A stretch of 64,000 nt of DNA, from the NCBI GenBank assembly GCA_965232015.1, contig OZ246946.1, positions 245,562 through 309,561 of the forward strand, given 5' to 3'. Below, one piece after another: positions 444-42,870 of this stretch. A program made the translations under genes and the position numbers. How positions within the stretch are numbered: position 1 is the first letter of the stretch; every line of letters begins with the position of its first letter. This DNA comes from Vicinamibacteria bacterium (GTDB taxonomy: Bacteria > Acidobacteriota > Vicinamibacteria > Marinacidobacterales > Marinacidobacteraceae). Under the pieces are notes generated by a model. That model was not told where the DNA came from. It saw only the letters and a list, made by a program, of their open reading frames with translations, and ran no database searches.

Positions 444-659
444 CTGTGGACAAAGTCACGCGGCCCGGTTCTCCCGGTAGGGGCTCGAGCGGCGATGCAT
501 CCCGCCTGAACGCACCCCTTCGCTTCGCTCCGGGGCGCTCTTCGTTGCGCATCGGTCGGAATACACCCGGTATTCCTCCCTCGCGCGCCGCCCCCACCGG
601 GAGAACTGGGTCAGCCGCGCGCCTCGCCACTCTCGGTGCTCACGCGACTTTATCCACAG
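444..659. mobile_element. 216-bp MITE-like element, copy 1; terminal inverted repeats CTGTGGACAAAGTCACGCG / CGCGACTTTATCCACAG; non-coding
   Basis: Near-identical ends and internal blocks are shared with the second copy at 42655-42870. It contains the CCCACCGGGAGAACTGG motif. ORFs inside it (362..784) are spurious. Confidence 0.6.
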
Positions 660-864
660 GCTGCAAGGAGAGCGGGGTGAACCGGAGCGGGAGAAACGGT
701 TCCGTCCTACAGGGGTGTAGGTGGGCGTCGCGTGTCGGGCCCGGGCTTCCCTCGTGGGATGCGCATCCCGCCCGCCAGTGGTGACTCCCGTTCGGAACTT
801 TAGTAGCCGGAACACGAGTCGCCGCGCCGGTTCGGGTTCAGTGTAACTGCGGTCCCCGGCCCGG

Positions 865-951
865 TGCCGGGAGCGGGGTTCGAACCCGCACGCCCCTGGA
901 GGGCGGGGAATTTTAAGTTCCCGACGTCTTCCTGAATTCCGTCATCCCGGC
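865..951 (-). tRNA. tRNA-Leu (anticodon TAA), class II with long variable arm; CCA not encoded
   Basis: Reverse complement reads GCCGGGATGACGGAATTCAGGAAGACGTCGGGAACTTAAAATTCCCCGCCCTCCAGGGGCGTGCGGGTTCGAACCCCGCTCCCGGCA. Acceptor stem GCCGGGA/TCCCGGC, anticodon loop CTTAAAA, T-arm GCGGG-TTCGAAC-CCCGC. Architecture is the same as E. coli tRNA-Leu(UAA). Confidence 0.8.
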
Positions 952-2355
952 GTCGGAGCGGTGCTTCCGATGCGGATGATACGAACGCGACCCGTCGCCT
1001 CGGACGCCGGGGGTGAGCCCGATCATCAGATCCATGACGTTCGTGCCGGTGGGGCCGGTCCGGAGGAGCTCTCCGGTGCGGTCGAACACGGTCCACGAGT
1101 CGTTTCGGGCGAGCGCGGCGGCGGGTTCGAGGCCGAGCTCCGACGCGCGCGCCCAGCTCCCCCCGTCCACGACCGCGCCCGCGGCGTCGGTGGGTCCGTC
1201 GGTGCCATCGGTGCCCCCGGCGAGAAGCGCCACACCGGAGGTTCCATCGAGCGCTCGCGCCGCGACCAGCGCGAACTCCTGACTGCGGCCGCCCTGGCCG
1301 TCCCCGGTCACCCGCAGGGTGAGTTCGCCGCCGGCGAGGAGCGCCGCGGGACCGGGGCGAGCCGCGACCTCGGCGAGTCTGGTCGCGAACGCCCGGGCCG
1401 TTCCCCCGACTTCGCCGGTGAGATCCCGGCCGAAGAACTCGACGGGGTAGCCGAGCCGCGCCGCCTCGGCAGCGGCGGCGTCGAGCGAGCGCCGGTTGCT
1501 CGCCAGGATGTGGTGCGGCGGGGCCGATCGGGCGTCGGAGGGCGTCTCCGGGATGCGGCCCGCCGCGCCCGCGTCGAGCCGACGCCGCACCGACTCCGGA
1601 ACCCTTCGGACGAGGTCGTAGCGGGAAAGCACCTCGAGCGCGTCGCCGAATGTCGTCGGATCCGGCGTCAGCGGCCCCGACCCGATGGAGGTCAGGTCGT
1701 CGCCCACGACATCGGAGATGACGAGGACCGCGGCCCGCAGGTCCCTGACGAGCGGCATGAGATGGCCGCCCTTCACCGCCGAGAGGTGCTTGCGGACCGT
1801 GTTGATCTCGTGGATATCGGCCCCGCTCGCGAGCAGGAGTTCGTTGGTCCGCGCTTTCGCTTCGAATCGGATCCCCGAAGCGGGCGCGACGAGCAGCGCC
1901 GAAGCCCCTCCGGTGAGCAGGAACAGGACCCGGCTTCCGGCCGGAACCCGCCGCAGGTCTTCGACGAGACGACGGGTCGCCGCCACCGAAGCAGTGTCCG
2001 GCACCGGGTGGGCCGCCTCTTCGACGGTGACGCCGCGGACCTCCTCGACGTGCCCCCGCTTCACGATGATCCGGCCGGACAGCCTCTCTCCTTCGAGCCC
2101 GCCGGCGATGGCCCGGCCGAGCGCCGCCGCCGCCTTCCCGGCGCCGAATACGAACACCCCCTCTTCGGGCGTGTGCGCCGCGGGGAGGAGCGGCGCGCCC
2201 CCGAGCGTCCATCCGGCGCGCGCCGAGCCACCGAGGCCGCGGGCGAGGATCGGGGCGGGGTCGGCGGCCGCCAGCCCGGCGCGGAGCACCCGGTGGAGAT
2301 CCCGCCGCAGCCCGGGTTCGCCCGGCGTCGGCGCGGCGTCGGCCACGTCGGTCAT
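913..2355 (-). CDS. glycerate 2-kinase (MOFRL family, TtuD/GckA-like)
   Basis: Motifs FVFGAGKAAAAL, LLTGGASALL, GGTDGTDGPTD, TGPTGTNVMDLMI. ATG is the reverse complement of 2353-2355. The C-terminal tail reads about 30 residues beyond the usual family end and overlaps the 5' half of tRNA-Leu. Confidence 0.8.
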   Translation of the reverse strand: MTDVADAAPTPGEPGLRRDLHRVLRAGLAAADPAPILARGLGGSARAGWTLGGAPLLPAAHTPEEGVFVFGAGKAAAALGRAIAGGLEGERLSGRIIVKRGHVEEVRGVTVEEAAHPVPDTASVAATRRLVEDLRRVPAGSRVLFLLTGGASALLVAPASGIRFEAKARTNELLLASGADIHEINTVRKHLSAVKGGHLMPLVRDLRAAVLVISDVVGDDLTSIGSGPLTPDPTTFGDALEVLSRYDLVRRVPESVRRRLDAGAAGRIPETPSDARSAPPHHILASNRRSLDAAAAEAARLGYPVEFFGRDLTGEVGGTARAFATRLAEVAARPGPAALLAGGELTLRVTGDGQGGRSQEFALVAARALDGTSGVALLAGGTDGTDGPTDAAGAVVDGGSWARASELGLEPAAALARNDSWTVFDRTGELLRTGPTGTNVMDLMIGLTPGVRGDGSRSYHPHRKHRSDAGMTEFRKTSGT

Positions 2356-2399
2356 TCGGGCCCTTTCGGAGCGGCGGGATGACGAAGTAGAGTCAGGCC

Positions 2400-2549
2400 A
2401 TGGTTCGGCCACCGGAGGTGAGCGATCCGGAGCCGGAACCGCGGCCGCTCCCGCGGCGTCTCTATGTCGTGCTGGCGTTCGCCCCGATCCTGCTCGCGGG
2501 GCTCGCGCTGGCCGGTCTGATCCTTTTTCACTGCGCGAGAGTATGACGG
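2400..2549 (+). CDS. possible 49-aa small membrane protein (MVRPPEVSDPEPEPRPLPRRLYVVLAFAPILLAGLALAGLILFHCARV) in the divergent intergenic region
   Basis: ATG-to-TGA ORF with one clear TM helix. Weak RBS. No homology evidence. Confidence 0.2.
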
Positions 2550-2586
2550 TCCGGGCGCCCGATCCCGGCTGCGACGGAGGTGTCCG

Positions 2587-3570
2587 GTGTCCGAGCTGTA
2601 TGTAGCCGAAGGAGGTCGGGTCGTCGGCCCGTTTCCGGTGTCGGAGGTCCGCCGCCGCCTCGATTCCGGCCGGTGGGGGCCGGGCGTTCAGGTCTGTCCG
2701 ACCGGCAGCCAGGAGTGGCGGCCGGCGTCCGCCGTCACCGGGCTCCTCGGCGGCCCGGCGCCGCCGCGCCCCCCGCGGTCGCAGCGGATGCACGAGGTGG
2801 ACTTCCGCGTCGTCGGGGAGGAGATGCAGTTCGTCGAGGTCGAGCTCGATCCTCGCGAAGGCGCCATCGCCGAAGCCGGGGCCATGATGTACATGACCTC
2901 CGGGATCGAGATGCAGACGATCTTCGGGGATGGAAGCCAGCGCGGCTTCATGGACAAGATGCTCGGCGCCGGGAAGCGCCTGCTCACCGGCGAGAGCCTG
3001 TTCATGACCGAGTTCGTGAACCGGGGCGCGGGCAAGCAGCACGTCGCCTTCGCCTCCCCCTACCCGGGGAAGATCATCCCCGTGGACCTCGCCGAGATCG
3101 GCGGCCGCGTCATCGCGCAGAAGGACGCGTTCCTCTGCGGCGCGAAGGGCGTCTCCGTCGGGATCGCCTTCCAGCGTCGCATCGGAACCGCGCTGTTCGG
3201 CGGCGAAGGCTTCATCATGCAGTCGGTCGAGGGGGACGGCATGGCTTTCCTGCATGCCGGCGGCACGATCGAACGGCGTGAACTCGGCCCCGGCGAGAGC
3301 CTCCGGGTGGACACCGGTTGCCTGGTCGCGCTCGCTCCCTCGGTGAACTACGACATCCAGACGGTCGGCGGCGTCAAGTCGGCGCTGTTCGGCGGCGAGG
3401 GCTTCTTCTTCGCCCGTCTCACCGGCCCCGGCTGGGTGTGGCTGCAGTCGCTGCCGTTCAGCCGCCTCGCGGGGCGGATCCACCAGGCGGCGCCCCAGAC
3501 CGGCCGCGGCGGCAAGGGCGAGGGATCGCTCCTCGGCCGGCTCTCGGGCGTGGGCTGGGACGGCAACTGA
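2587..3570 (+). CDS. DUF4339 (GYF-like) N-terminal domain fused to an AIM24/TIGR00266-family domain
   Basis: GTG start with GGAGG RBS at 2574-2578. N-terminus MSELYVAEGGRVVGPFPVSEVRRRLDSGRWGPGVQVCPTGSQEWRPA fits DUF4339. The rest (MQFVEVELDPREG...GEGFFFARLTGPGWVWLQSLP) fits the AIM24/DUF124 fold. Confidence 0.75.
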   Translation: MSELYVAEGGRVVGPFPVSEVRRRLDSGRWGPGVQVCPTGSQEWRPASAVTGLLGGPAPPRPPRSQRMHEVDFRVVGEEMQFVEVELDPREGAIAEAGAMMYMTSGIEMQTIFGDGSQRGFMDKMLGAGKRLLTGESLFMTEFVNRGAGKQHVAFASPYPGKIIPVDLAEIGGRVIAQKDAFLCGAKGVSVGIAFQRRIGTALFGGEGFIMQSVEGDGMAFLHAGGTIERRELGPGESLRVDTGCLVALAPSVNYDIQTVGGVKSALFGGEGFFFARLTGPGWVWLQSLPFSRLAGRIHQAAPQTGRGGKGEGSLLGRLSGVGWDGN

Positions 3571-3671
3571 GGCGCGTCATCGCTTCCTTTGGGGCTTCCT
3601 CCGCGCGCTCGTTCGTCGAACGGTTCCGCTGGGACGGCTGGACCCCGGACGAGCGCGCGACGCTCCTGTTC

Positions 3672-4136
3672 GTGGTCACCGGCGGGCGAATCCTGCTGAT
3701 CGAGAAGCACCGCGGGCTCGGCGAAGGGAAGGTGAACGGCCCCGGTGGACGCCTCGAACCCGGCGAGACGCCCCGGGAAGCCGCGATCCGGGAGACCGAG
3801 GAGGAGGTGCTCGTCCGCCCCACTGGAGTCCGGTTCGCGGGCGAGCTGCAGTTCCAGTTCACGAGCGGCTTTTCGATCCACGTCCACGTCTTCCGCGCCG
3901 ACGGCTGCATCGGAGAGCCCGGCGGGACCGAGGAAGCCACCCCGCTGTGGGCTTCGCTCGACCGGATCCCCTATGACCGCATGTGGGAAGACGACGCGGT
4001 GTGGCTGCCGCTCCTCCTGCGCCGGGAGCGGTTCTCGGGACGCTTCGTCTTCGAAGGGGACCGGATGCTCACCCACGAGATCCGGACCGGGGCGGAGATC
4101 GCCGAGCCGGAATCCGACCTCGACGCGCGGGCCTGA
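3672..4136 (+). CDS. NUDIX hydrolase (MutT-like)
   Basis: Nudix box GGRLEPGETPREAAIRETEEEVLV. No ATG is in frame after the upstream stop. GTG at 3672 is the most plausible start, but the in-frame upstream stretch FRWDGWTPDERATLLF looks protein-like. Confidence 0.7.
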   Translation: MVTGGRILLIEKHRGLGEGKVNGPGGRLEPGETPREAAIRETEEEVLVRPTGVRFAGELQFQFTSGFSIHVHVFRADGCIGEPGGTEEATPLWASLDRIPYDRMWEDDAVWLPLLLRRERFSGRFVFEGDRMLTHEIRTGAEIAEPESDLDARA

Positions 4137-4170
4137 CCGGACGCCGGGTCGAGCAGGTCGGAGCCGTCCG

Positions 4171-4647
4171 GTGCGAACTTCCGAGCTGAGCCGGGAGGTC
4201 TGGCTCCCGCGACCGCCGGAGGAGGTGTTCCCGTTCTTCGCCGACGCCGGAAACCTCAATCGGCTGACGCCGCCCTGGCTCCACTTCCGGATCCTCACCC
4301 CGCGACCCATCGAGATGGCGGTCGGCGCCCGGATTGACTACGGCCTTCGCCTCCACGGCCTCCCCATCCGCTGGCGGAGCGAGATCGCCGCGTGGGATCC
4401 GCCGCACGGCTTCGTGGACGAGCAGCGGCGCGGTCCTTACCGGGTCTGGATCCACCGCCACGGCTTCGAGCCCCACCGCGAAGGCACTCTCGTCACCGAT
4501 CACATCCGCTACGCCGTCCCCGGCGGCCCGCTCGTGGACCGGCTCTTCGTCCGTCGCGACCTGCGCCGCATCTTCGACTACCGCACCGCCCAGCTCCGCC
4601 GCCGGTTCCAACGCGTACCGTCCACGGGGCTGCGTGCGCGGTCGTAG
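4171..4647 (+). CDS. SRPBCC-family protein (polyketide cyclase/dehydrase-like fold)
   Basis: EVWLPRPPEEVFPFFADAGNLNRLTPPWLHFRILT... is typical of SRPBCC/COG4276 proteins. GTG start at 4171. Confidence 0.65.
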   Translation: MRTSELSREVWLPRPPEEVFPFFADAGNLNRLTPPWLHFRILTPRPIEMAVGARIDYGLRLHGLPIRWRSEIAAWDPPHGFVDEQRRGPYRVWIHRHGFEPHREGTLVTDHIRYAVPGGPLVDRLFVRRDLRRIFDYRTAQLRRRFQRVPSTGLRARS

Positions 4648-4656
4648 AGTCCATAG

Positions 4657-4678: not shown

Positions 4679-4684
4679 TGCCGT

Positions 4685-11262: not shown

Positions 11263-11289
11263 GATCGGAGGCGGAAGGCTACCGGAGCG

Positions 11290-11540
11290 CCGCCTTGCCG
11301 GCGCGCCGGACTCCAGTCTCATGCCGGGCCCCCACCGGGAGAACTGGCGCCGGACTCCAGTCTCATGCCGGCGCGCCGGACTCCAGTCCGGCAATTTGTC
11401 GGCGCCGGCGCGCCGGCAGAGGAGTGCCGGCAGAGGAGCGCCGGCAGAGGAGCGCCGGCAGTGGCAGGCCGGCTTGGAATTGCCGGACTGGAGTCCGGCG
11501 CGCCGGCAGAGGCGCGCCGGCAGCGGAGCGCCGGCGCACC
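11290..11540. repeat. REP-like palindromic repeat cluster (about 8 units; core GCGCCGGACTCCAGTCCGGCAATT) in a divergent intergenic region
   Basis: Stem CCGGACT / AGTCCGG. Units occur in both orientations with degenerate copies. Translated ORFs here (PDWSPARRQ...) are spurious. Confidence 0.85.
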
Positions 11541-21047: not shown

Positions 21048-21068
21048 GCGCAGAAGTATGGAACGCTC

Positions 21069-21104
21069 CTGCCGGCGCGCCGGACTCCAGTCCGGCACCG
21101 AGAG
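21069..21104. repeat. single REP-like unit
   Basis: CTGCCGGCGCGCCGGACTCCAGTCCGGCACC. Confidence 0.8.
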
Positions 21105-21171
21105 ACGCTCCCAGCCCGTTCCTCCCCACCGGCCCGCCCTCGGTCCGCGGCCCCGAGTACTCTCCCGCCGC

Positions 21172-29155: not shown

Positions 29156-29235
29156 TCCTAACAGAGTCATGGGCCCTCGCGACGGAGCCAGAATCGGTAG
29201 CGCCCACCGGAGTCCGTCTGACCTCCCGGTAGTGT

Positions 29236-29458
29236 CGGAGCGCCGGACTCCAGTCCCTTGCCTGCGCGCCGGACTCCAGTCGCTTGCCGGAGCGCCGGAC
29301 CCCAGTCCGGCAATTCCACGCGAGGCTGGACCTCGGTGCCTGCACTCCTCGGCCTGCGCGCCGGACTCCAGTCGCTTGCCGGCGCGCCGGACTCCAGTCC
29401 GGCAATTCCACGCGAGGCGGCTCCTCGGTGCTGGCGCTCCTCCGCCGGCGCGCCGGCA
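29236..29458. repeat. REP-like repeat cluster (about 7 units)
   Basis: Repeated GCGCCGGACTCCAGTC(C/G)... units in the same orientation. Confidence 0.85.
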
Positions 29459-30401: not shown

Positions 30402-30908
30402 TCACCGGGCCGGCTTGCCGACCTTGCTCTGGTGCTGGGGACAGAGCTGCTCCAGAGGTACGCCGAGACGCTCCAGGAGAGCGCTCTGCTCGTCCCAGTC
30501 GCTGTCGGTGGCGTTAAGGATCGCTGCGCCGGCCTTCACGGCTACGGCCAGGAACTTCCGATCAGACGGATCGAGTTCGTTCTTGGGGAGCTCTGCGAAT
30601 CCTCGCGACTCGTCCGATGGCGTGATCCGTACCCACTCCGTTGCCGCGGTGTGCGATCCGCCCATGACGGCGATGCAGAATTCACTTCCAACGCCTCGGC
30701 CTGCTCGATTGTCGAGAAGTCTCTTCCGGTACTCACCCAGGACGCCCCACGACGCATCGACACAGACGATGGTCCGGCTGCGAGTCACTGCTTCGAGTCG
30801 CGCCGTGCACGCCCGTTGACAATCCAGGTCGGCGTGTGTGTCCACATCCCCACAGCTTCCCGCCTCGGCGGCGATCAGAACATTCGTGTCCACGACAACG
30901 CGTGTCAC
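30402..30908 (-). CDS. PIN-domain nuclease
   Basis: MTRVVVDTNVLIAAEAG and ATDSDWD acidic residues. GTG start overlaps the ATPase stop (GTGA). Confidence 0.8.
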   Translation of the reverse strand: MTRVVVDTNVLIAAEAGSCGDVDTHADLDCQRACTARLEAVTRSRTIVCVDASWGVLGEYRKRLLDNRAGRGVGSEFCIAVMGGSHTAATEWVRITPSDESRGFAELPKNELDPSDRKFLAVAVKAGAAILNATDSDWDEQSALLERLGVPLEQLCPQHQSKVGKPAR

Positions 30909-32296
30909 GCCTGGTCCTCCATCCGCCGCCGCATTCCCGCCTCCTGGATCGCGAACACTTCCGCGAGCTCATCGCCGAAAAAGTCCTTGGGCCAATTCTT
31001 GATCTGACCGTAGCGATCGAGTTCGAGGTCGTTGAGTTGAGCTCCACTGTCGCCCGTAGAAACGAAGAAGAGTCTCACGTCGGCGGAGCCCTCTGCTCCC
31101 TCGGCCCTGCGCCGTTGAATTCGACGCAGGAGGTGCTCGCTGTGGCTCTCCATGACGATCTGAACATCGCGTGTCTGCGCCGCGTGCAAAAACACATCCG
31201 CCAGGATCGCTTGTGCGGAAGGATGAAGGTGGATCTCGGGTTGCTCCAAAAGGACAATGGAACCTTGGGGAACGTGATACAGAAGGACAAGAATCGGCAA
31301 GACCTGAGAGACCCCGAACCCGACATCGGTGAGCGTGGACTCGCATCCATTCGGGCTGGTCGTCACGAGTGCCCGCCACAGGTTGGACTGCTCGTCGATC
31401 CGTACGATCCGAAAACCTGACACGAGACCCATTTCCTTGAGCCAGTGAGCGATGACCTCCTGAAACGGACGGCCGCGCCCCTTCTCGTCAATTAGTTCCT
31501 CGCCGGACTCGGTTGCCGCGAGCAGAGCATCAATAGTCAGTTCTCCGCGTGTGCCGACATCGGTAGGCCGGACTCCGCCGAAGCGATAGAATCGGTGAGG
31601 GCGCGCCCGTAGCGGACCTAGGTATGAGATGGAGTCCATCATGATTTCATACAGGAAGGGCGCAATGCGGAGTTGACGTATGACCTGACGGTCTTTTCTG
31701 CTCCCGGTGTCCTTGGTGCGGGAGGCACCGGCCCAGTAATGCGTTGGAAGAACGTAGCTCTTGGCCGGCGCGATTCGACCGCCGCGGTGTGAAGAGAGTC
31801 GCCTCACCTCCTCAATCGGCCCGTCGTTGTTGATGAACTCATAGCCGTCGGCTTCGTGTGCGCGCCGAATGCCGATCCAATGGTCCCCGACGTGATAACA
31901 GAGGTCGATCGTCTCGGGAGCGGACCCGCGTAGGCGCACGCTGGACTCCAGACGGTGCTCCGGCGCGCTCCTTAGCGAGGGATGGTCGGCACGAAACGGT
32001 CGGCGATGGCGTTCGTACCAGCTCACCGTCCACGACAGGGCGAGACTCTGGTCGTGTCGGTGAATCAGGTCTCGGTAACTGCCGAGATTGACGAGTTGGT
32101 CTGGACCTCCGAAGTTCAGCGTGACGGCGGGGTCTGTCGCGTTCCTCGTCTGCTTCAGCATGAGGAGGAACTGGAACAGGCTGCTCTTGCCGGAGCTGTT
32201 CGTCCCGAAGATGCCGGTGAGCTGGCCGAACTCCAAGTCGACAGCCTTCCATGCCTTGAAGTTCTCGAGGTGAAGTCTGGTGATCACGGTCCCTCC
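30905..32296 (-). CDS. ABC-type (OLD/Septu/PARIS-like) AAA ATPase, AAA_15/21 with DUF3696-like C-terminal region
   Basis: Walker A GIFGTNSSGKSSLFQ and Walker B / H-loop IVLLEQPEIHLHPSAQ. GTG start at 32296 with strong RBS AAGGAGGG. Lower GC (about 57-60%) than the backbone. Confidence 0.8.
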   Translation of the reverse strand, partial: GGTVITRLHLENFKAWKAVDLEFGQLTGIFGTNSSGKSSLFQFLLMLKQTRNATDPAVTLNFGGPDQLVNLGSYRDLIHRHDQSLALSWTVSWYERHRRPFRADHPSLRSAPEHRLESSVRLRGSAPETIDLCYHVGDHWIGIRRAHEADGYEFINNDGPIEEVRRLSSHRGGRIAPAKSYVLPTHYWAGASRTKDTGSRKDRQVIRQLRIAPFLYEIMMDSISYLGPLRARPHRFYRFGGVRPTDVGTRGELTIDALLAATESGEELIDEKGRGRPFQEVIAHWLKEMGLVSGFRIVRIDEQSNLWRALVTTSPNGCESTLTDVGFGVSQVLPILVLLYHVPQGSIVLLEQPEIHLHPSAQAILADVFLHAAQTRDVQIVMESHSEHLLRRIQRRRAEGAEGSADVRLFFVSTGDSGAQLNDLELDRYGQIKNWPKDFFGDELAEVFAIQEAGMRRRMEDQA

Positions 32297-32354
32297 TTCG
32301 CCGGGATGGCGCCGAACGGTGACGGGCGGCTGCGCCCAAGCCCGTTTCCGAACT

Positions 32355-33747
32355 CTACCGGCGGATGAGGCCAAGGACGAACTCCTCGTGCATCCGTCGC
32401 TCGATCCCGGACCTCGTCGCTGCGCCCCAGCGAGCCGGCATCATCCGGCGGTCGCGATCCAGCCGCCGCCGACCGATGCCCGCGACCTCGAAACCGGTCT
32501 CCTCCGCGAGCGCCGCCAGCGCGAGGTGGGTCTCGACGTCGAGGCCGCGCAGCACGGAAGTGCCCACGACCACGATCGCCGCCCCTCCCGGCCGGAGGAC
32601 GCGCTCCGTTTCGCGCAGCACGGCCGCCATGTCCCCGAAGTAGCGCCGGAGAACCGCGGCCTTGCGCCGGTCGAGCTCCGCGAGGGCCGCCACCGTGCGT
32701 CCGCAGCGATCGGGCAGGTCGCCCCGGCCGCCGCCGAGCACGGCGTCGTGCCCGACGTAGCGCCGGCGCAGGCGGGTCAGATCGGCAATCCTCCAACCCA
32801 GCCACACCAGCGAGAACTTGTGCGCCCGCATGTAATCAATCGCGCCGTTGGCGTAGGGCGGCGACGTCACGACCAGATCCACGCCCTCGGGCGGCAACCC
32901 GGTGTCCGTCGCCGGGGCGTCGAGCACTCGGGCGGTCGGCGCGTCGTCCCCGGCCCCGGCCGGAGCGCCCCGGGACCGGACGATGCGGCGGAGACGGCCC
33001 TCGAACACCGCCAGCGCCGGTTTCGGCTGCTTCGCCTCGACCCGGTGGGGCCGGGTGTGGGCCAGATCCCGCGCCAGCGAGACGCCACCCGACTTGGCGA
33101 TGATCGTCGAAGAGAGGACGACCTCGAGGAATCTCCGCGTTCGGGGCTCGCGCACGCCGGAAACCGCGGCGGCGAGCGCTTCCAGCTCGAGCTGCTGCGC
33201 CGGGCGGAACCAGTAGTCCACGAACTTCCGCGTTGCGGCGTCGAAGCGGCGGTCGAGGTCGCGCGTCAGCCCGGCGGCATCGCTCCGCAGGCGGGCGCCG
33301 GCGAGCGCGAGAACATCGCGTCCCGCCTCCGCGGCGGCTCCCGGGTCCGGCGGAGCCAGCTTGGCGAGCGCGATCCGGCGGGCGAGCGGATCAATATCGC
33401 AGCCGATGGCTCGCCGCCCGAGCGACTGCGCCTCGACGAGGGTCGTTCCGGAGCCCGCCATCGGGTCGAGCACGGCGTCGCCGGGCCGCGACAGGACCTC
33501 GATGAACCGGCGGGGCAGGGCGGGGGGGAACTTCGCCGGGAACGGATGCCAGCGGTGGCGGCCGGACGAGCCCCGGCGCCCGTGGAAGCCGAGATCCGCG
33601 TCGAGCAGCGCCCGGAGCCGCTCGCCGACCGGTTGCACCTCCGCGTCGGCCGAAGTCTTCGAGCGCGGCGCTGCCGGGTCGGGGAGCGGGAACAGCGAGG
33701 GCGCCTCGGGCACGGTGCGTCCGGCGGCGCGATTGCGGCCCGGCATT
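32355..33747 (-). CDS. site-specific DNA methyltransferase (N6-adenine/N4-cytosine, PF01555-type, circularly permuted motif order)
   Basis: AdoMet motif HPFPAKFPPALPRRFIEVLSRPGDAVLDPMAGSGTT comes first, then catalytic TSPPY and RVLRPGGAAIVVVG. Alternative start at 33809. Confidence 0.8.
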
Positions 33748-33809: not shown

Positions 33810-34400
33810 GAGGCTGAAGCGCGCGGCGTGACATCTGCCGCAAACGACCCGGTCGAGGAGTCTTCACCCCCTTTTGGACGCTCGGTCGTCGCCTGCCCCC
33901 GCTGCGCCGTTCGTCTGCGTGAGGAGTGGGATGGCGGTGATGCAGCCGGACGTGTGGCGGGTACGCGCGGGCGGGGACGGCCCATGAACTCCGACGACGC
34001 AGTCTTGACGCTCATCGTGCTTGGCCGGTGGAACTGCGGCATCATCGTGGCGTGGTAACGGATGATCCGGCGCGACACCCGGCATGAGTTCGGCGCACTC
34101 CGCCGGGATCTCCGTCGCGGGTTCGCGCAGGCCCGCCAGGTACGACTCGAACGCCGGCGGGAGTTGGTGAGCCCGCTTTCCCGGGATGGAGCAGCGTCTT
34201 CGTCGGCATGACGACGGCGACCTCGACGCCATCGGTGGCGAACCAGTCGCACGTGTTCACCATCACGGCCTGGATTGCCCGTGGCTCACCTCTGCCACTG
34301 CACCTCGCGGGTGCGATGCGTGGTGGCAGCATACGAAGAATGATGCCGAGCCGACGCAACCTGTGAGCTGTGCGCCTCAGCCTGCCAATCGGTAGGATCA
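33810..34400 (-). pseudogene. gene remnant: several partial frame-shifted protein-like fragments, no intact ORF
   Basis: Fragments VMVNTCDWFATDGVEVAVVMPTKTLLHPGK, FESYLAGLREPATEIPAECAELMPG and IRYHATMMPQFHRPSTMSVKTASSEFMG lie in three different frames. Confidence 0.3.
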
Positions 34401-34820
34401 GCGGTCCCTGTTCGACCAGAGCGCTCGGAAACCCTCCTGGGTGAAGTGCCTGTCTCCGGTGAGGACATCGCTAATGTCGAGTTTCCGCATTACGACCATG
34501 GAGACGCAATCCGTCAGGCTGTAGCCCTTGTCCTCTCGCTGCTCGTACAAGTCCAAGCCGGCCAGGAACGAGCTCCGGGTCTGGGGTTCTACCCGGATGC
34601 TGCGGTCGTCGAGGATCTCTCGCACCGTGATCGTGGCGCGCTTTCTCGCACGGGATCCGAGCGTGCACAGTGCGGCAAGGAATTCGACCAGCACTTCATC
34701 TGTAGTCACGAGTTGGGCCCCTGCGACTGCGTTCCCGGCTCTTGTCGCGGCCCTGTGCCAAGGATCCCTCGGATTCGCCACGGCGATCCAGTACGCCGCG
34801 TCCACGAAGACTAGCTTCAC
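34398..34820 (-). CDS. PIN-domain VapC-like toxin
   Basis: MKLVFVDAAYWIA...TTDEVLVEF...TDCVSMVVMRKLDISDVLTGDRHF. GTG start overlaps the stop of the upstream partner. Confidence 0.8.
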   Translation of the reverse strand: MKLVFVDAAYWIAVANPRDPWHRAATRAGNAVAGAQLVTTDEVLVEFLAALCTLGSRARKRATITVREILDDRSIRVEPQTRSSFLAGLDLYEQREDKGYSLTDCVSMVVMRKLDISDVLTGDRHFTQEGFRALWSNRDR

Positions 34821-37933: not shown

Positions 37934-37994
37934 GGCACCTGGTCCCGCGTCTCCCGTCGCCCTCGCCGCCACCGGGGCGCGGATCACGCACTCC

Positions 37995-39488
37995 GTGACC
38001 ACGGACCGGTTCGAAACCGTGATCGGGCTCGAAGTCCACGTGCAGCTCGACACCCGGACCAAGCTGTTCTGCCCCTGCCGCAACACGTTCGGCGAGCCGC
38101 CCAACTCGCAGATCTGTCCGGTCTGTTACGGCCTCCCCGGGGCGCTTCCGGTTCCGAACCTCCGCGCCGTGGAACTCGCAGTCGTCGCGGCGCTCGCGCT
38201 CGACTGCGAGGTGGAGCCGGAGTCCATCTTCGAGCGGAAGAACTACTTCTACCCCGATCTGCCGAAGGGCTACCAGATCACCCAGTACGACAGGCCGATC
38301 GCCCGGCGCGGCGGCGTCCGGATCCAGGTGGGAGACGCGTCTCCGCGCATCATCCGCATTCACCGCATCCAGCTCGAGGAGGACGCCGGAAAGCTGGTCC
38401 ACGACGGCTACCGGGGGTCGGAGGAAGGGAGCGGGGTGGACTTCAACCGGGCCGGCGTCCCGCTCATCGAGATCGTGAGCGAGCCCGATCTTCGGTCCGC
38501 CGCCGAAGCGGGCGACTACGCCCGCACCCTCCGGCAGCGCATCGTCCACGCCGGGGTCTCCGACGCCGACATGGAGAAGGGCAACCTGCGGATGGACGGG
38601 AACATTTCGATCCGCCGCCGCGGGGATGCCGCTCTCGGCGCGAAGGTGGAGCTGAAGAACCTGAACTCCTTCCGCTATCTCGAGCGGGCGCTCGCCTACG
38701 AGGAGGTCCGTCAGCGGAGGATCCTCCGCTCCGGAGGCGTCGTGGTCCAGGAGACGCGCCTGTTCGACGAGGGCCAGGGCCGCAGCTTCGCCATGCGGTC
38801 CAAGGAGGAGGCGGCCGATTACCGCTACTTCCCCGACCCGGACCTGCCCCCGCTGCGGTTGCCGCCGGGGCTGGTGGAGTCCGCCCGCGCCGGACTCCCC
38901 GAGTTCCCGACCGACCGGGCCGCGCGCTTCGTCCGCGACTACGGGATTCCGGAGGACGCCGCCCACCAGATCGCGGCGCGGCGCGGGCTCGCCTCGTACT
39001 TCGAGACTGTCGTCGAGGCGGCTGCGGGGTCCGGGACCCCGGCCCGCGACGTCGCGCCGGTCGCGGCGGCGTTCCTGACCACCGATGTCGTCGCGCGCGA
39101 GAAGCAGGACGGCGGCTTCCGCGCGCCGCCGCGCCCCCTCGGCCAACTGATGGCCCGCCTCGCCGACGGCCGGCTGCCCCGCAACGCGGTTCGGGATCTC
39201 TTCAACGCGCTCGCCGACCGCGGGGAGGATGCTCCCGAACTCGATGCGCTGATCGCCGAGCTCGGGTTCGACCATTTCGCCGGCGGGGACCGCCTCGAGC
39301 GGGCGGCGGCGGAGGTTGTCGCGGCGTACCCCGACGAGGCGGCGGCCTACCGGTCCGGCAGGAAGAAGGTCATCGGCTTCCTCATGGGTCGGCTCCTGCG
39401 CGAACTCCGCGGCAAGGCGGACGCCCGGGCCGCCCGCTCCGCGCTCGAACGGGTGCTCGAAGGAGCGCCGGACTCCAGTACGGCCTGA
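37995..39488 (+). CDS. gatB: Asp-tRNA(Asn)/Glu-tRNA(Gln) amidotransferase subunit B
   Basis: FETVIGLEVHVQL, CPCRNTFGEPPNSQICPVCYGLPG, and the GatB/YqeY C-terminal domain. GTG start. Confidence 0.9.
   Translation: MTTDRFETVIGLEVHVQLDTRTKLFCPCRNTFGEPPNSQICPVCYGLPGALPVPNLRAVELAVVAALALDCEVEPESIFERKNYFYPDLPKGYQITQYDRPIARRGGVRIQVGDASPRIIRIHRIQLEEDAGKLVHDGYRGSEEGSGVDFNRAGVPLIEIVSEPDLRSAAEAGDYARTLRQRIVHAGVSDADMEKGNLRMDGNISIRRRGDAALGAKVELKNLNSFRYLERALAYEEVRQRRILRSGGVVVQETRLFDEGQGRSFAMRSKEEAADYRYFPDPDLPPLRLPPGLVESARAGLPEFPTDRAARFVRDYGIPEDAAHQIAARRGLASYFETVVEAAAGSGTPARDVAPVAAAFLTTDVVAREKQDGGFRAPPRPLGQLMARLADGRLPRNAVRDLFNALADRGEDAPELDALIAELGFDHFAGGDRLERAAAEVVAAYPDEAAAYRSGRKKVIGFLMGRLLRELRGKADARAARSALERVLEGAPDSSTA
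39463..39485. repeat. single REP-like unit at the gatB / kinase junction
   Basis: GGAGCGCCGGACTCCAGTACGGCC. Confidence 0.7.
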
Positions 39489-40159
39489 CCGCGCTCGCGC
39501 CGCTCGTCGCCATCGCCGGCGCGAGCTGCACCGGAAAGACCCGGTTCGCGCGGAAGCTGGCGGAGGCGCTCGCTCCCCGCCGCGCGGTGGCGCTGTCGCT
39601 CGACGACTACTACCGGGACACCTCGCACCTCACCCGCGCCGAACGCCGCCGGGTGAACTACGACGAGCCGGCGGCGTTCGCGCTCGACGCCTTCGTCACC
39701 GATCTGCGGGCGGTTCGTCGGGGCGGCATCGCGCCGCGGCGCCGCTACGACTTCGCGACCGGCGCCGCCCGGACCGACGGCGCGCTGGGACCGGCGGACA
39801 TCGTGCTCGCCGAAGGACTGTTCGCCCTCCGCGAGCCGCGGATCGCCGAGGCCGCCAACCTCCGCATCCTCCTCGAAGGGGACGACGACCGCCTCCTCGC
39901 GCGGCGCGTCACCCGGGACGGCGCCGAGCGCGCCTACAGCCCGGAGGAGGTCGAGGAGCGTTTCCGGAGCACCGTGATCCCGTCGCAGCGCCGGTTCCTC
40001 CGCGGTGCGGCGGAGGGGGCCGATCTGGTGTTCCCGATGGACTGGGGCAGCCGCGATGTCGCACTCGCCGCCTTCCGTCTCCTTCCTTCGGATGGCCGCG
40101 GCGGGGATACTTGCGGCCGGAGACGACCCCGCCAGCCCCGGAAAGGACTCAATCCGTGA
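39485..40159 (+). CDS. uridine kinase / phosphoribulokinase-family nucleoside kinase
   Basis: P-loop LVAIAGASCTGKTRF and LSLDDYYRD. There is no ATG/GTG/TTG upstream of the P-loop. CTG at 39485 overlaps the gatB stop, so the start is uncertain. Confidence 0.55.
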   Translation: MTALAPLVAIAGASCTGKTRFARKLAEALAPRRAVALSLDDYYRDTSHLTRAERRRVNYDEPAAFALDAFVTDLRAVRRGGIAPRRRYDFATGAARTDGALGPADIVLAEGLFALREPRIAEAANLRILLEGDDDRLLARRVTRDGAERAYSPEEVEERFRSTVIPSQRRFLRGAAEGADLVFPMDWGSRDVALAAFRLLPSDGRGGDTCGRRRPRQPRKGLNP

Positions 40160-40992
40160 CCGCCCCCATCCTTCGCATCGGGCACAGCCCCGATCCCGAC
40201 GACGCCTTCATGTTCTGCGCCCTCGCCCACGGCGCGGTCCGGATCCGCGACTACGAAGTCGAGCACGTCCTCGAGGACATCGAGAGCCTGAACCGGCGGG
40301 CGATGCGGGGCGACCTCCCGATCACCGCGATCTCGGCCCACGCCTACCTCTCGGTGGCGGACCGCTACTGGATCATGGCGTCGGGCGCGAGCATGGGCGA
40401 GAACTACGGTCCGGTGGTCGTGAGCCGCCGTCCCGGAAGCCTCGCCGACCTCGTCGGCCGCCGGGTCGCGATCCCCGGCCCGCGGACCACCGCCGCGCTG
40501 CTGGCGCGCTGCTACATCGGCGACTTCGAACCGGTCGTCGTCCCCTTCGACGAGATCTTCGACGCGGTGGACGAGGGCCGCGCCGAGGCCGGGGTGGTGA
40601 TCCACGAGGGGCAGCTCACCTACGGCGCGCGCGGCTACCACCTGCTCTCCGACTTCGGCGTCCGCTGGGAGGAGGAGTGCGGTCTGCCGCTCCCGCTCGG
40701 GCTCGATGTGGTGCGCCGGGATCTCGGCCGGGAACTCGCGACCGAAGTGAACCGGGCGATGCGCGACAGCATCGACTGGGCCTACGCCAACGAGGACGAG
40801 GCGCTCGACTACGCGCTGCAGTTCGGGCGCGGGCTCGAGCGCGAGCTGGGACGACGTTTCGTCAAGATGTACGTCTCGGCGCTCACCCGGGACATGGGAG
40901 ACGCCGGCGAGGCGGCGCTCAGGCGATTGTTCGCGATGGCCGCGGAGGCGGGCGTCGTCGAGGAAGCCCCCGACTTCACGCTGATCCGGTAA
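40156..40992 (+). CDS. MqnA/MqnD-family protein (futalosine-pathway menaquinone biosynthesis, PF02621)
   Basis: ILRIGHSPDPDDAFMFCALAHGAV and ISAHAY. GTG start overlaps the kinase stop. Confidence 0.7.
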   Translation: MTAPILRIGHSPDPDDAFMFCALAHGAVRIRDYEVEHVLEDIESLNRRAMRGDLPITAISAHAYLSVADRYWIMASGASMGENYGPVVVSRRPGSLADLVGRRVAIPGPRTTAALLARCYIGDFEPVVVPFDEIFDAVDEGRAEAGVVIHEGQLTYGARGYHLLSDFGVRWEEECGLPLPLGLDVVRRDLGRELATEVNRAMRDSIDWAYANEDEALDYALQFGRGLERELGRRFVKMYVSALTRDMGDAGEAALRRLFAMAAEAGVVEEAPDFTLIR

Positions 40993-41035
40993 CGGCCGCC
41001 CGCGCCGAAGGGCAAGGAGTAAGGAAGAGATCGCC

Positions 41036-41827
41036 ATGCTGCTCGCGTTCGACGTCGGCAACACCAAGACGGCGATCGGGCTCCACGACGGCGGGCAGTG
41101 GGTCCACGCCTGGCGGGTGTCCACCCGGCCCGGCCGGCTCCCGGACGAAATGGCGGTGCAGCTCGACGGGCTCCTCCGCCTCGCCGGACACTCGCGGGAG
41201 CGGATCGTCCGGCTGGCGGCGGCGAGCGTCGTGCCGGCGGTGACCGGCGCGCTCCGGGATCTCTCCGAACGGCGCTTCGGGAGTCCGCTCTTCGTGCTCG
41301 ACCACCGGACCGCGCACGGCATCACCCTCGCGGTGGAGACCCCCGAGGACACCGGGCCCGACCGGATCGCGAACACGATCGCCGTCCACCACCACCACGG
41401 CGTGGACGCCATCGTGCTCGACGCCGGGACGGCGCTGACCTTCGATGTGATCTCGCGCGACGGCGAGTACCGGGGCGGAGCGATCGCCCCCGGGCTCGGG
41501 GTTTCGGCGGAGGCGCTCGTCGGACGCACCGCCCGCCTGCCGCGGATCGAGCTGAAGCCGCCGAAGCGCGTCGTCGGCCGGGACACGGTGTCGGCGCTCC
41601 GCTCGGGGCTCGTCCTCGGGTGGACCGGCATGGTCCGCGAGATGGTCCGGTTGCTCCGCGCCGAGGTCGGCGGCGAGCCGCTGGTGATCGCCACCGGCGG
41701 CGCCGCCCGTCAGGTCGCGGACTGGAGCGGGGTGGTGGACCGGGTGGACGAGCGCCTCACGCTCGAGGGCGTCCGCCTCGCCTGGTCCCGGGACCGCGCC
41801 GGGAAGCCGGGGAGCGCCGTTACCTGA
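41036..41827 (+). CDS. coaX: type III pantothenate kinase
   Basis: MLLAFDVGNTKTAIGL and GGAIAPG are CoaX motifs. Confidence 0.85.
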   Translation: MLLAFDVGNTKTAIGLHDGGQWVHAWRVSTRPGRLPDEMAVQLDGLLRLAGHSRERIVRLAAASVVPAVTGALRDLSERRFGSPLFVLDHRTAHGITLAVETPEDTGPDRIANTIAVHHHHGVDAIVLDAGTALTFDVISRDGEYRGGAIAPGLGVSAEALVGRTARLPRIELKPPKRVVGRDTVSALRSGLVLGWTGMVREMVRLLRAEVGGEPLVIATGGAARQVADWSGVVDRVDERLTLEGVRLAWSRDRAGKPGSAVT

Positions 41828-42593
41828 CGCGAACCCCGGCGAGTCGCCCGACCTGGCCGATCGCGGCGCCGAAGGTCGCGAACTGCCAGAACATCCCCGG
41901 GATCACCCCGACGATGCACAGCACGATCGAGAGATCCCCGAGGATCGCGATGAAGATGAGGGTGAGGAGCAGGAAGAAGTAGTTCCCGCGGGCCCGGCGG
42001 ACGTTGTCGAAGGCGTCCCCGAACGCGAATCCGGAGCCCAGCGATCCGGTGGCGGCGAGGTTCATCAGGTTGGCCGGGAGGATGCCCTTCGCGAGGAGCA
42101 CCGTCATCATGAGCAGGAAGAGGGAGAAGAGCCCGATCAGCGCGCCGACGACCATCAGGCCGGGGGCGTCGTCGGCTTCGCCGAACCCGATGAGCATGCC
42201 CCCGAAAGCGAGGAGCGCCAACCCGACCGCGACCGCGACCACGATGTGGACGACGATCACGATGGCGGCCTTGAGCCCGTCCATCAGGATGCCTCCGAAC
42301 TCGTCCCCCCAGTCCGGCATGGGATGCTCGTCGCCCCGCATCACGCCGCGGGCGGTGCGGAGCCCGAACCCGAGCAGCAGGAACAATCCGAGCCCGAGGA
42401 ACGGGATGAGCAGCACCGCGACGCACCCCACCAGGAACTTGCCGAGGGCGTGCGGATCGCGAAACGCCGTCCCCAGGACGCTGGAGAAATCGAACCGGCC
42501 GGAGGCGTCGTCGGCTGGCGGCGGCGCGCCGGGTTCGGGGGGTGGTGGGGGAGCGCCCGGCGAGGAGCCCTGGGTGGCGGATGCGTCGTTCAC
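41820..42593 (-). CDS. DUF4013-like polytopic membrane protein with Pro-rich N-terminus
   Basis: Multiple TM helices, N-terminal PPPPPEPGAPPP. Confidence 0.6.
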   Translation of the reverse strand: MNDASATQGSSPGAPPPPPEPGAPPPADDASGRFDFSSVLGTAFRDPHALGKFLVGCVAVLLIPFLGLGLFLLLGFGLRTARGVMRGDEHPMPDWGDEFGGILMDGLKAAIVIVVHIVVAVAVGLALLAFGGMLIGFGEADDAPGLMVVGALIGLFSLFLLMMTVLLAKGILPANLMNLAATGSLGSGFAFGDAFDNVRRARGNYFFLLLTLIFIAILGDLSIVLCIVGVIPGMFWQFATFGAAIGQVGRLAGVRVR

Positions 42594-42654
42594 TTCGAAT
42601 GGTCCTTTCGGGGCGTCCGCCCCGGTATCCTTTCCTGCTTCGCTCTGAATCAGG

Positions 42655-42870
42655 CTGTGGACAAAGTCACGCGGCCCGGTTCTCCCGGCAGGGCTCGAGC
42701 GGCGATGTAACCGGGCTGGCCCCCACCGGGAGAACTGGCGCGCCCCTCCGCTACGCTCCGGGCCGCTGTTCGTTGCGCATCGGTCGAAAGACGGTGCGGT
42801 CTTCCTCCCTCGCGCGCCTGGTCAGCCGGGTGCCTCACCGCTCTCGGCGCTCACGCGACTTCATCCACAG
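42655..42870. mobile_element. 216-bp MITE-like element, copy 2
   Basis: Same TIRs and internal blocks as 444-659, with internal block order partly rearranged. Sits in the divergent acnA promoter region. Confidence 0.6.

What the first reader, a model, noticed from the sequence alone, without database searches (positions are those of the whole stretch)
444..42870. Two copies of a 216-bp MITE-like element with about 17-bp terminal inverted repeats, plus the shared CCCACCGGGAGAACTGG motif
Copies at 444-659 and 42655-42870 share the ends CTGTGGACAAAGTCACGCG ... CGCGACTT(T/C)ATCCACAG and several internal blocks. Both sit in intergenic regions, next to tRNA-Leu and in the acnA promoter region. The internal 17-mer CCCACCGGGAGAACTGG also occurs outside the elements (about 11322, 49135, 56000), sometimes abutting REP units. 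The elements could alternatively be a structured small-RNA family.
Basis: seen in the sequence. Interest (0 to 1): 0.5.

Follow-up and report, generated by a model that had tools for sequence, protein, structure and literature searches.

The report
Folded mini-transposon family with nested 18-mer
The two 216-bp copies belong to a previously undescribed family of small non-coding transposons (MITEs) in marine Vicinamibacteria. One copy inserted just upstream of the aconitase gene, and the shared 17-mer is a separate 18-nt mini-repeat that gets inserted into these elements and into other repeats.

Summary
Each copy is 226 nt, at 439-664 and 42650-42875, with terminal inverted repeats (TIRs) of about 26 nt. 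The two copies are 88% identical.

**Family.** They belong to a family with a 171-nt core (185 nt with full TIRs). It is multi-copy in at least 7 Vicinamibacteria/Ca. Marinacidobacterium genomes. Copies are usually flanked by TA in a YTAR context.

**Mobility.** Copy B is present and identical in a strain whose aconitase (acnA) is 99% identical. It is absent from the same DUF4013/acnA spacer in five relatives (82-87% acnA identity), which have TAA at that point. One orthologous copy is inverted between species, and abutting copies share a single TA.

**Structure.** The element folds into a 68-pair rod. In the 25 copies tested, 97.6% of cells are paired and 24 pairs show changes on both sides. 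In 49 copies G-U outnumbers A-C 10:1 on the strand complementary to the finding's + strand.

**What was not found.** No Rfam family matches, no transposase was found, and there is no orientation bias toward neighbouring genes.

**The 17-mer.** It is an 18-nt unit, CCCCACCGGGAGAACTGG. It sits at eight or more sites in the core, at different sites in copies A and B, in REP-like clusters, and in tandem arrays of period 18. It is polymorphic between orthologous copies.

**Verdict.** This is a new MITE family. The nested 18-mer is the unusual part.

The parts
439..664 (+). MITE copy A. It is 226 nt: a lineage-specific 180-nt core (the 171-nt family core plus 9 extra nt), two 18-nt units and the outer TIR bases. 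The better-folding strand is the minus strand.
   Evidence: (nhmmer E=2.8e-38). Minus-strand fold -133.8 kcal/mol, z -9.0.
437..438 (.). AA dinucleotide flanking copy A on the left. It occupies the position of the family's TA.
665..666 (.). AA dinucleotide flanking copy A on the right.
439..464 (+). Left TIR of copy A: GCAGCCTGTGGACAAAGTCACGCGGC.
   Evidence: helix 1.
639..664 (+). Right TIR of copy A: ..CACGCGACTTTATCCACAGGCTGC.
465..482 (-). Older, diverged 18-nt unit (CCGGTTCTCCCGGTAGGG) at core site 30. Copy B has one at the same site.
592..609 (+). Canonical 18-nt unit CCCCACCGGGAGAACTGG, preceded by GC, at core site 130. Absent from copy B. It pairs with 465-482.
42650..42875 (+). MITE copy B, 226 nt, with decayed outer ends (TCAGG../..CCTCT). 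It ends 7 nt before the acnA ATG.
   Evidence: (E=7.5e-31). Identical in the 99% strain; absent in five relatives.
42677..42693 (-). Diverged unit at core site 30, 17 nt long.
42721..42738 (+). Canonical 18-nt unit at core site 56. Absent from copy A. It pairs with 42677-42693.
42876..42877 (.). TA at the right junction of copy B. The empty sites in relatives read TAA here.
11330..11347 (+). Canonical 18-nt unit between two REP-like units. The dinucleotide CG that starts a REP-like unit is replaced by GC plus the unit.
49129..49159 (-). Canonical 18-nt unit (49142-49159) plus an adjacent 13-nt partial copy (49129-41), next to a REP-like unit.
   Evidence: (D19).
56009..56039 (-). 18-nt unit with 1 mismatch (56022-56039) plus an adjacent 13-nt partial copy.
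   Evidence: (D19).

Best explanation
[quoted passage not shown] Marinacidobacterium and unnamed Vicinamibacteria MAGs.

**Anatomy.** The canonical element is 185 nt. It has TIRs of about 26 nt (GCAGCCTGTGGACAAAGTCACGCGGC) and no coding capacity, and it is usually flanked by TA inside a YTAR context.

**Mobilisation (inferred).** A transposase supplied in trans recognises the shared outer TIR and inserts the element at TA with duplication. That behaviour is typical of IS630/Tc1-mariner transposases. An IS5-type transposase with a YTAR duplication is not excluded.

**Fold.** The whole element forms a 68-pair rod with a three-way tip. The covariation is shown. The level at which selection acts (RNA or single-stranded DNA of one strand) is inferred.

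**The 17-mer.** It is a separate 18-nt unit that has been inserted repeatedly into the element, into REP-like clusters and into other repeats. It adds a net 18 nt and rewrites 1-3 bases at one junction. Copies A and B each gained a second unit at a different site after they diverged. In both, the new unit is complementary to the older unit at site 30.

**Consequence at acnA.** Copy B landed 7-12 nt upstream of the acnA start codon. That pushed the former upstream sequence 226 nt away, so acnA transcription must now start in the element or read through it.
For: **Multi-copy family**
- The capped genome scan returned 102 loci.
- nhmmer found 107 hits and 51 full-length copies, 25 of them with a core of exactly 171 nt.
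- Counting nhmmer hits spanning more than 100 nt of the core profile, at least 28 lie in OZ252286 and at least 24 in CAXXLQ010000004.

**Ends**
- TA lies on both sides in 32 of 49 copies, against a TA dinucleotide frequency of 1.0%.
- The outer Y and R bases are not correlated, so they are flank and not element.
- Abutting elements share one TA.
- Two other short families carry the same TIR with different interiors.

**Mobility**
- Copy B is filled in the window and in the 99% strain, where it is 245/245 identical.
- The site is empty in L155, L159, L160, L156 and L157, all with the same DUF4013/acnA arrangement.
- Two of the closest relatives (L155 and L159) read ..C-TAA-CGCARATG at the empty site.
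- Relatives carry copies at other sites.
- An orthologous copy lies in the opposite orientation in another species.

**Structure**
- In 25 copies, 97.6% of cells are paired, 24 of 68 pairs change on both sides, and 0 of 500 shuffles reach the observed values. Slid controls pair at 31-41%.
- The RNAalifold folding term is -105.5 on the minus strand against -77.0 on the plus strand.
- In 49 copies there are 300 G-U cells against 31 A-C cells.

**The 18-nt unit**
- It occurs at eight or more sites in the core.
- An orthologous MITE in two species carries units at sites {109,141} versus {30,65}.
- Arrays have an exact 18-nt period, and there are 116 hits in 415 kb.
- A 20-for-2 difference exists between strains that are 99% identical across the flanking sequence.
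Against: - No autonomous element or transposase with these TIRs was found. This covers the roughly 415 kb of fetched loci, the window ORFs that were tested, and the plasmid and phage collections.
- The size of the duplication is not settled. TA is self-complementary, and a 4-bp YTAR duplication fits about as well.
- Copy A is flanked by AA/AA. Copy B's left junction reads TGAA. Two L156 copies are flanked by TG..CA/CG.
- No empty site is available for copy A.
- A DDE cut-and-paste transposon has no obvious need for a strand-specific fold, so the G-U asymmetry is not explained by this model alone.
- Loci were fetched by an exact TIR match, so TIR conservation is overestimated.
Confidence: 0.8

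Rival explanations
1. A multi-copy structured non-coding RNA gene family. The 185-nt rod would be the functional product of the strand complementary to the finding's + strand. The inverted ends would be just the closing helix.
For: - Covariation is strong in all five helices.
- G-U outnumbers A-C by 10 to 1, and the fold is about 28 kcal/mol better on one strand.
- Sequence conservation across species is high, 0.88-0.94 per column.
- The 18-nt insertions lie mostly at or next to loops and junctions.
Against: - There is no orientation preference relative to neighbouring genes: same/same 13, opposite/opposite 13, mixed 13.
- The same orthologous site holds the element in opposite orientations.
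- The copy B site is filled in the window lineage and empty in relatives.
- Partial and tandemly amplified modules exist.
- The same termini occur on families with unrelated interiors.
- No Rfam family matches, and no promoter-like site lies in or near either copy.
Confidence: 0.12
2. A REP/REPIN-type or IS200/IS605-derived element (a PATE) moved as single-stranded DNA by a Y1 HUH transposase such as a RAYT or TnpA. The fold would be the substrate, which would explain the strand asymmetry.
For: - The fold is strand-specific.
- The same genomes are full of REP-like hairpins such as GCCGGACTCCAGTCCGGC.
- Copies cluster in one orientation along parts of a chromosome.
Against: - The element has long, symmetric TIRs and TA flanks at both ends. 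IS200/IS605 elements and REPINs lack both (established knowledge of those families).
- No GTAG or CGTC tag is visible at the foot of the hairpin (read from the sequence; criteria from PMC3733652).
- No Y1 transposase was found in the window ORFs tested.
- Orientation does not correlate with local GC skew.
Confidence: 0.05
3. Not mobile. A segmentally duplicated regulatory region or a chance palindrome shared by two promoters.
For: Only two copies lie in the 64-kb window, and both are just upstream of minus-strand genes.
Against: - Dozens of copies occur in other genomes with unrelated flanks.
- Zero chance matches are expected.
- Relatives have an empty site at copy B.
- The two downstream genes are unrelated: a PLP-dependent Cys/Met-metabolism (cystathionine gamma-synthase/lyase-like) enzyme, judged from its translation by recall, and a DUF4013 membrane protein.
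Confidence: 0.01

Closest known systems
Correia/NEMIS elements of Neisseria, within the bacterial MITE class reviewed by Delihas 2008 (PMC2229807)
   Same: - Non-coding, about 100-200 bp.
- TIRs of about 24-26 bp and TA at the termini.
- Intergenic, and often immediately upstream of genes.
- Transcripts predicted to form one long stem-loop.
- Length variants that differ by an internal block.
- No cognate transposase identified (for the class features).
   Different: - No sequence similarity, and a different phylum.
- The fold here has a branched tip and is backed by extensive compensatory changes and a one-strand G-U bias.
- Length variants arise from an 18-nt unit at many sites, not from one 50-bp block.
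- IHF binding and RNase III processing were not tested.
RUP of Streptococcus pneumoniae and other IS630/Tc1-mariner-derived MITEs (Stowaway-like)
   Same: - TA target and flanks.
- TIR-defined ends.
- Several short families share one TIR.
- Insertion next to or into other copies, sharing a TA (for RUP and IS630-Spn1).
   Different: For RUP a parent IS with matching TIRs is known. Here none was found, so the IS630 link rests only on the TA/YTAR flanks.
Small dispersed repeats (SDRs) of cyanobacteria (Elhai et al. 2008, Genome Res 18:1484; cited in PMC3116915; details from memory)
   Same: Very short repeats of about 20 nt, found dispersed and nested inside other repeated elements, and present or absent between otherwise orthologous sequences.
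   Different: - Different sequence and phylum.
- The unit here is 18 nt, invariant across species, and also forms exact 18-nt tandem arrays.
- Its insertion rewrites 1-3 adjacent bases.
- The mechanism is unknown in both cases, and the paper could not be read here.
REP/BIME mosaic elements and REPINs
   Same: The 18-nt unit sits between REP-like hairpins in mosaic clusters. These clusters differ even between strains about 99% identical in the flanking sequence.
   Different: The 18-nt unit is not a hairpin. It also inserts into MITEs, and the MITE itself has TIRs and TA flanks.

Membership tests
Bacterial MITE (non-autonomous class II element) | Small size (under about 300 bp) and no coding capacity | tested here: met
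   The canonical element is 185 nt and the window copies are 226 nt. All three minus-strand frames are closed. One plus-strand frame is open in 22 of 25 copies, but I saw no start codon in the translations, and the peptide differences fall where the stems covary (my reading of the six-frame translations).
Bacterial MITE (non-autonomous class II element) | Terminal inverted repeats | tested here: met
   TIRs of about 26 nt form helix 1, which is 99% paired in 25 copies.
Bacterial MITE (non-autonomous class II element) | Target-site duplication | tested here: inconclusive
   - TA lies on both sides in 32 of 49 copies, against a 1% background.
- Abutting copies share one TA.
- The empty site for copy B has TAA.
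- TA is self-complementary, 2 bp and 4 bp cannot be separated, and both window copies have imperfect flanks.
Bacterial MITE (non-autonomous class II element) | Many dispersed copies with unrelated flanks, and filled/empty polymorphism | tested here: met
   Copy B is filled in two strains and empty in five relatives.
Bacterial MITE (non-autonomous class II element) | A related autonomous IS with the same TIRs | tested here: not met
   None was found in about 415 kb of loci, in the 10 window ORFs scanned, or in the plasmid and phage collections. Whole genomes could not be scanned. This feature is also missing for Correia elements, so it is not strictly required.
IS630/Tc1-mariner-mobilised MITE | TA target with 2-bp duplication | tested here: inconclusive
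   The flanks fit TA in YTAR, but an IS5-type 4-bp YTAR duplication fits as well.
IS630/Tc1-mariner-mobilised MITE | TIR similarity to an IS630-family element in the same genomes | not testable with these tools
Rfam RNA family | A match to a curated covariance model | tested here: not met
   Only tRNA reached the gathering threshold. The best element hits have E between 0.19 and 8.
REP/REPIN | A 20-40 nt hairpin with a conserved GTAG/CGTC tag, a RAYT partner, and no TIR or TSD | tested here: not met
   The element is 185 nt with TIRs and TA flanks. No tag is visible. No RAYT was found among the tested ORFs.
Small dispersed repeats (the 18-nt unit) | A very short repeat, nested in other repeats, present or absent between orthologous sequences | tested here: met
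   This is a resemblance in kind only. There is no sequence relation and no defined mechanism for either.

The most novel reading that the evidence does not exclude
The 18-nt unit CCCCACCGGGAGAACTGG may be an ultra-small insertion module with a mechanism of its own. It would be copied from a conserved template or recognised by a dedicated enzyme, then written into repeat elements, mostly at or near the loops and helix ends of their fold, replacing about 2 nt with about 20.

That would explain four things:
- It is invariant across genomes whose genes are only 75-85% identical.
- It forms exact 18-nt arrays.
- It differs between orthologous MITE copies.
- It differs between strains about 99% identical in the flanking sequence.

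A linked possibility is that the MITE's one-strand fold is read as RNA and has a host or element function.
Probability: 0.25. Interest if true: 0.75.

Novelty: new member of a known kind. Interest (0 to 1): 0.5.

Why it matters
It adds a well-defined MITE family to a poorly known, uncultured marine class of Acidobacteriota.

**A dated insertion at a core gene.** The element inserted directly in front of a core TCA-cycle gene, acnA. The filled and empty states are both available for comparison.

**An unusually clean structure signal.** The family gives a 68-pair fold with many compensatory changes and a strand bias. This raises the question of why a DNA transposon should keep a strand-specific structure.

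**The nested 18-nt unit.**
- It gives a second example, outside cyanobacteria, of very small insertion units, whose mechanism has never been explained.
- Many independent insertion sites and strain-level polymorphisms make that question testable here.
- The unit is also a practical marker of very recent change in these genomes.

Tried and rejected
- **Riboswitch or leader idea.** Both copies lie upstream of minus-strand genes, but those genes are unrelated and orientation is random across the family. Rejected.
- **Autonomous IS between TIR pairs 600-3000 bp apart.** Those intervals hold ordinary genes or arrays of modules, for example a metalloprotease in L033.
- **Metagenome scan** with a window-lineage 18-mer (GTTGCGCATCGGTCGRAA).
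- **Viral scans.** Only chance hits. L152 carries 23 nt of the TIR at the cut end of a contig and cannot be resolved.
- **Plasmid and phage blastn.** No match.
- **Coding hypothesis**, prompted by core lengths that are multiples of 9. Rejected: the insertion as a whole (185 nt plus a 2-nt duplication) would not be a multiple of 3, and the peptide variation appears to track the covarying stems.
- **Replichore bias.** Runs of one orientation occur in OZ252286 and OZ244986, but there is no link to local GC skew and the replication origin is unknown. Inconclusive.
- **Template-switch copying** of the site-30 unit to the opposite arm. The observed plus-orientation sites (130, 141, 146-149) are not opposite site 30 in the fold, by my mapping of the sites onto the helices.
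- **DnaA boxes in the TIRs** (TTATCCACA and TTGTCCACA). They are absent from the second TIR subfamily (GGYRAAACYC), so probably coincidental.
- **Empty site for copy A.** The flanking synteny is not kept in L101 or L158. The source contig could not be fetched. One protein search was wasted on the wrong frame.

Full report
**1. The observation**

Both copies are present as described, in the same orientation.
- The left 19-mer is identical in A and B and has an inverted partner at the right end. Zero such matches are expected by chance.
- The 17-mer CCCACCGGGAGAACTGG has five exact or near-exact matches (593, 11331, 42722, 49142, 56022). Two diverged inverted copies lie inside the elements (465, 42676). 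That is 7 matches against 0.34 expected.
- A pairwise alignment gives 87.7% identity over 204 positions and two reciprocal 18-nt gaps. The 17-mer sits at a different place in each copy.

**2. True boundaries and family**

A pattern covering both ends was scanned against one genome per species.
- Streptomyces and other scattered hits are single and unrelated; L071 is an example.
- Vicinamibacteria and Ca. Marinacidobacterium MAGs gave many loci each. That genus is placed in Acidobacteriota, class Vicinamibacteria.
- TIR pairs fall into discrete length classes of 171, 189, 207, 216, 225, 261 and 315 nt.
- An HMM of the 171-nt class finds 107 hits and 51 full-length copies.

The flanks show that the inverted repeat continues outward.
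- The consensus is TA|GCAGCCTGTGGACAAAGTCACGCGGC...CACGYCACTTTATCCACAGGCTGC|TA, in a YTA..TAR context.
- The window elements are therefore 439-664 and 42650-42875.
- Copy A is flanked by AA/AA. Copy B has decayed outer ends.
- TA lies on both sides in 32 of 49 copies, against a TA dinucleotide frequency of 1.0%.
- The bases outside TA are not complementary more often than chance (p=0.44), so the element ends at TA.
- A 2-bp TA duplication and a 4-bp YTAR duplication cannot be told apart, because the common targets CTAG and TTAA are palindromes.
- Abutting elements share a single TA. Examples are the three tandem copies in L160 and the pairs in L041 and L002. This is what insertion into a flanking TA with duplication would give.
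- Two further short families carry the same TIR with unrelated interiors.

**3. Evidence for mobility**

The acnA protein has a 99%-identical homologue on a 3.8-Mb contig and a graded series of relatives. All six relatives that were fetched keep the divergent DUF4013/acnA pair.
- The 99% strain has the same 289-nt spacer, and its copy of the element is identical (245/245).
- Five relatives (82-87% acnA identity) have spacers of 55-154 nt with no element.
- Two of the closest empty sites read ..CCC-TAA-CGCAGATG (L159) and ..CAC-TAA-CGCAAATG (L155).
- The window reads ..CTCTGAA|element|TA-CGCAAATG.
- Copy B is therefore a lineage-specific insertion at that TA(A), ending 7 nt before the acnA ATG.

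Other observations point the same way.
- The same relatives carry family copies at other sites.
- In L047 and L076 the element occupies the same site between conserved flanks, but in opposite orientation.
- Across 51 full-length copies there is no orientation preference relative to neighbouring genes.
- No empty site could be obtained for copy A, because its flanks are not syntenic in relatives.

**4. Structure**

The strand complementary to the finding's + strand folds better.
- Copy A folds at -133.8 kcal/mol (z -9.0) on that strand against -111.4 on the other. Copy B gives -121.7 against -103.4.
- On 49 copies the RNAalifold folding term is -105.5 against -77.0, with similar covariation terms.
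- The consensus is a 68-pair rod. It has the TIR helix, a second long helix, and a three-way tip with two hairpins.
- On 25 natural 171-class copies, 97.6% of cells are paired.
- Of the 68 pairs, 24 change on both sides (109 cells).
- None of 500 shuffles reaches any of the five measures.
- Sliding the partners drops pairing to 31-41%.
- Non-Watson-Crick cells are 300 G-U against 31 A-C. About seven founder G-U pairs stand against none of the opposite kind, so the bias is modestly significant.
- Two TIR subfamilies, GGACAAAGTCAC/GTSACTTTRTCC and GGYRAAACYCAC/GTGRGTTTCACC, covary.

The fold is therefore under selection on one strand, as RNA or as single-stranded DNA. No Rfam family matches. The scans found no promoter-like site in or beside either copy. 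The only intrinsic-terminator-like hit inside an element is a weak 7-pair stem in copy A at 521-537.

**5. The 17-mer**

The length classes arise from an 18-nt unit, CCCCACCGGGAGAACTGG.
- It is inserted after core columns 30, 56, 64-67, 72, 109, 130, 141 and 146-149.
- Its orientation is fixed at each site.
- The net gain is 18 nt, occasionally 19.
- One to three bases at one junction are rewritten, most often to GC.
- By my mapping of these sites onto the helices, about five of the eight lie at or within a base pair of a loop or junction.

The window copies share a lineage-specific core about 9 nt longer than the family's, plus an old, diverged unit at site 30. Each then gained a canonical unit, A at site 130 and B at site 56. 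In both, the new unit is complementary to the site-30 unit and adds a 17-bp helix.

The unit turns over quickly.
- An orthologous MITE in two Marinacidobacterium species carries units at {109,141} versus {30,65}. The MITE core outside those indels and the right flank are roughly 90% identical by eye; the left flank has diverged.
- In the 99% strain a REP-like cluster reads CCGG|GCCCCCACCGGGAGAACTGG|CGCC where the window reads CCGG|CG|CGCC. Conversion from a paralogous cluster could also produce this.
- The unit occurs 116 times in 415 kb of loci. Of these, 82 lie inside this MITE family. The rest are in other repeats or in tandem arrays of exact 18-nt period.
- In the window the three copies outside the MITEs are intergenic. 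Two (11330 and 49142) adjoin REP-like units, and two (49142 and 56022) have a 13-nt partial copy beside them.

**6. What it is**

The anatomy matches the bacterial MITE class summarised by Delihas (PMC2229807): small, non-coding, TIR-bounded, TA at the termini, with a long stem-loop transcript. Correia elements and RUP are the closest named examples.
- The mobilising transposase was not found, so the IS630-type mechanism is inferred from the TA/YTAR flanks only.
- The literature search found no description of this family.
- The 18-nt unit resembles the small dispersed repeats of cyanobacteria in kind (reference seen; paper not held).

**7. Limits**

- Loci were fetched by exact TIR matches, which inflates apparent TIR conservation.
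- Whole genomes could not be scanned, so copy numbers are lower bounds and the absence of a parent IS is weak evidence.
- The covariation controls do not fully remove the effect of relatedness, although the slid controls are far lower.
- Expression was not tested.

**8. Verdict**

The nested 18-nt unit and the strand-biased, covarying fold are the features worth following up. Interest is scored at 0.5.

Noticed in passing
window 11287-11540, 21061-21140, 29224-29430, 45600-45820, 51430-51650, 56564-56613, 62460-62520: Abundant REP-like hairpin units (GCGCCGGACTCCAGTCCGGCAATT; stem GCCGGACT/AGTCCGGC) arranged in mosaic intergenic clusters. Related genomes use a different stem (GCCGACCTCCGGTCGGC).
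   Followed up: partly
window 45641-49228: A 3.6-kb segment is absent from the 99%-identical strain (L154). The left breakpoint is exactly at a REP-like hairpin, and the right end is next to the 18-nt unit at 49142. The segment encodes a 971-aa protein with a ParA/CbiA-like P-loop and a weak AAA_16 hit (45839-48754, minus strand).
   Followed up: partly
window 51437-51581 versus L154 9043-9123: The REP-like cluster at the same locus differs between two strains that are about 99% identical in the flanking sequence. The other strain has the 18-nt unit (a 20-mer in place of CG) and fewer REP-like units.
   Followed up: partly
L047 1130-1300 versus L076 3105-3275: The same insertion site between conserved flanks holds the 171-nt element in opposite orientations in two species. 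This means either re-insertion at the same TA or in-place inversion through the TIRs.
   Followed up: partly
L048 3985-4245, L051 1345-1659, L060 353-753, L072 3811-3834; L037 2718, L039 3036-3438, L041 7140: Two other short repeat families carry the same 26-nt TIR with unrelated interiors: ..GGCATTCCCGAGCCAAGAGGGATGG.. and ..GGCCCAGTTGCCGTGAAATGCAGTCGCGCC...
   Followed up: partly
L075 4386-5233, L055 6421-7405, L052 714-1920, L160 4270-4770: Arrays of partial or whole elements in tandem. One example is left-end modules with a 71-nt period. Another is three whole copies that share single TA junctions.
   Followed up: partly
window 444-455 and 648-659; most family copies: Both TIRs contain DnaA-box-like 9-mers (TTGTCCACA and TTATCCACA) in inverted orientation. 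They are absent from the second TIR subfamily, so probably coincidental.
   Followed up: partly
window 865-951 (minus strand) and 916-2355 (minus strand): The tRNA-Leu(UAA) was missed by the whole-window Rfam gathering scan but scores 43.9 bits on a short scan. It overlaps by 36 nt the 480-aa DUF4147/MOFRL (glycerate-kinase-like) ORF, a product of exactly this sequence and length that the protein collection also holds.
   Followed up: yes
L152 12-34 (IMGVR_UViG_3300031950_000289, contig end): A viral contig ends with TAGCAGCCTGTGGATAAAGTCAC followed by an AT-rich interior that is cut off after 11 nt. This could be the end of a related, possibly autonomous, element.
   Followed up: no
window 30905-32374 (minus strand), 34398-34820 (minus strand): An AAA_15/AAA_21 plus DUF3696 ATPase with lower third-position GC (0.72), and a PIN-domain gene. 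Both look like defence or toxin-antitoxin genes.
   Followed up: no
window 52060-52464; 53403-53911 and 56980-57476: Tandem 33-nt repeats at 52060-52464, lying within ORF 51880-52758 (minus strand). Paired repeated segments, including Pro/Ala/Glu-rich tracts, in the two large ORFs 53012-55900 and 56820-59447.
   Followed up: no
family consensus, + strand: One plus-strand reading frame runs open through the element in 22 of 25 copies, and another runs from the flanking TAG to the flanking TAG. All three minus-strand frames are closed. Judged to be a composition effect and not coding.
   Followed up: partly
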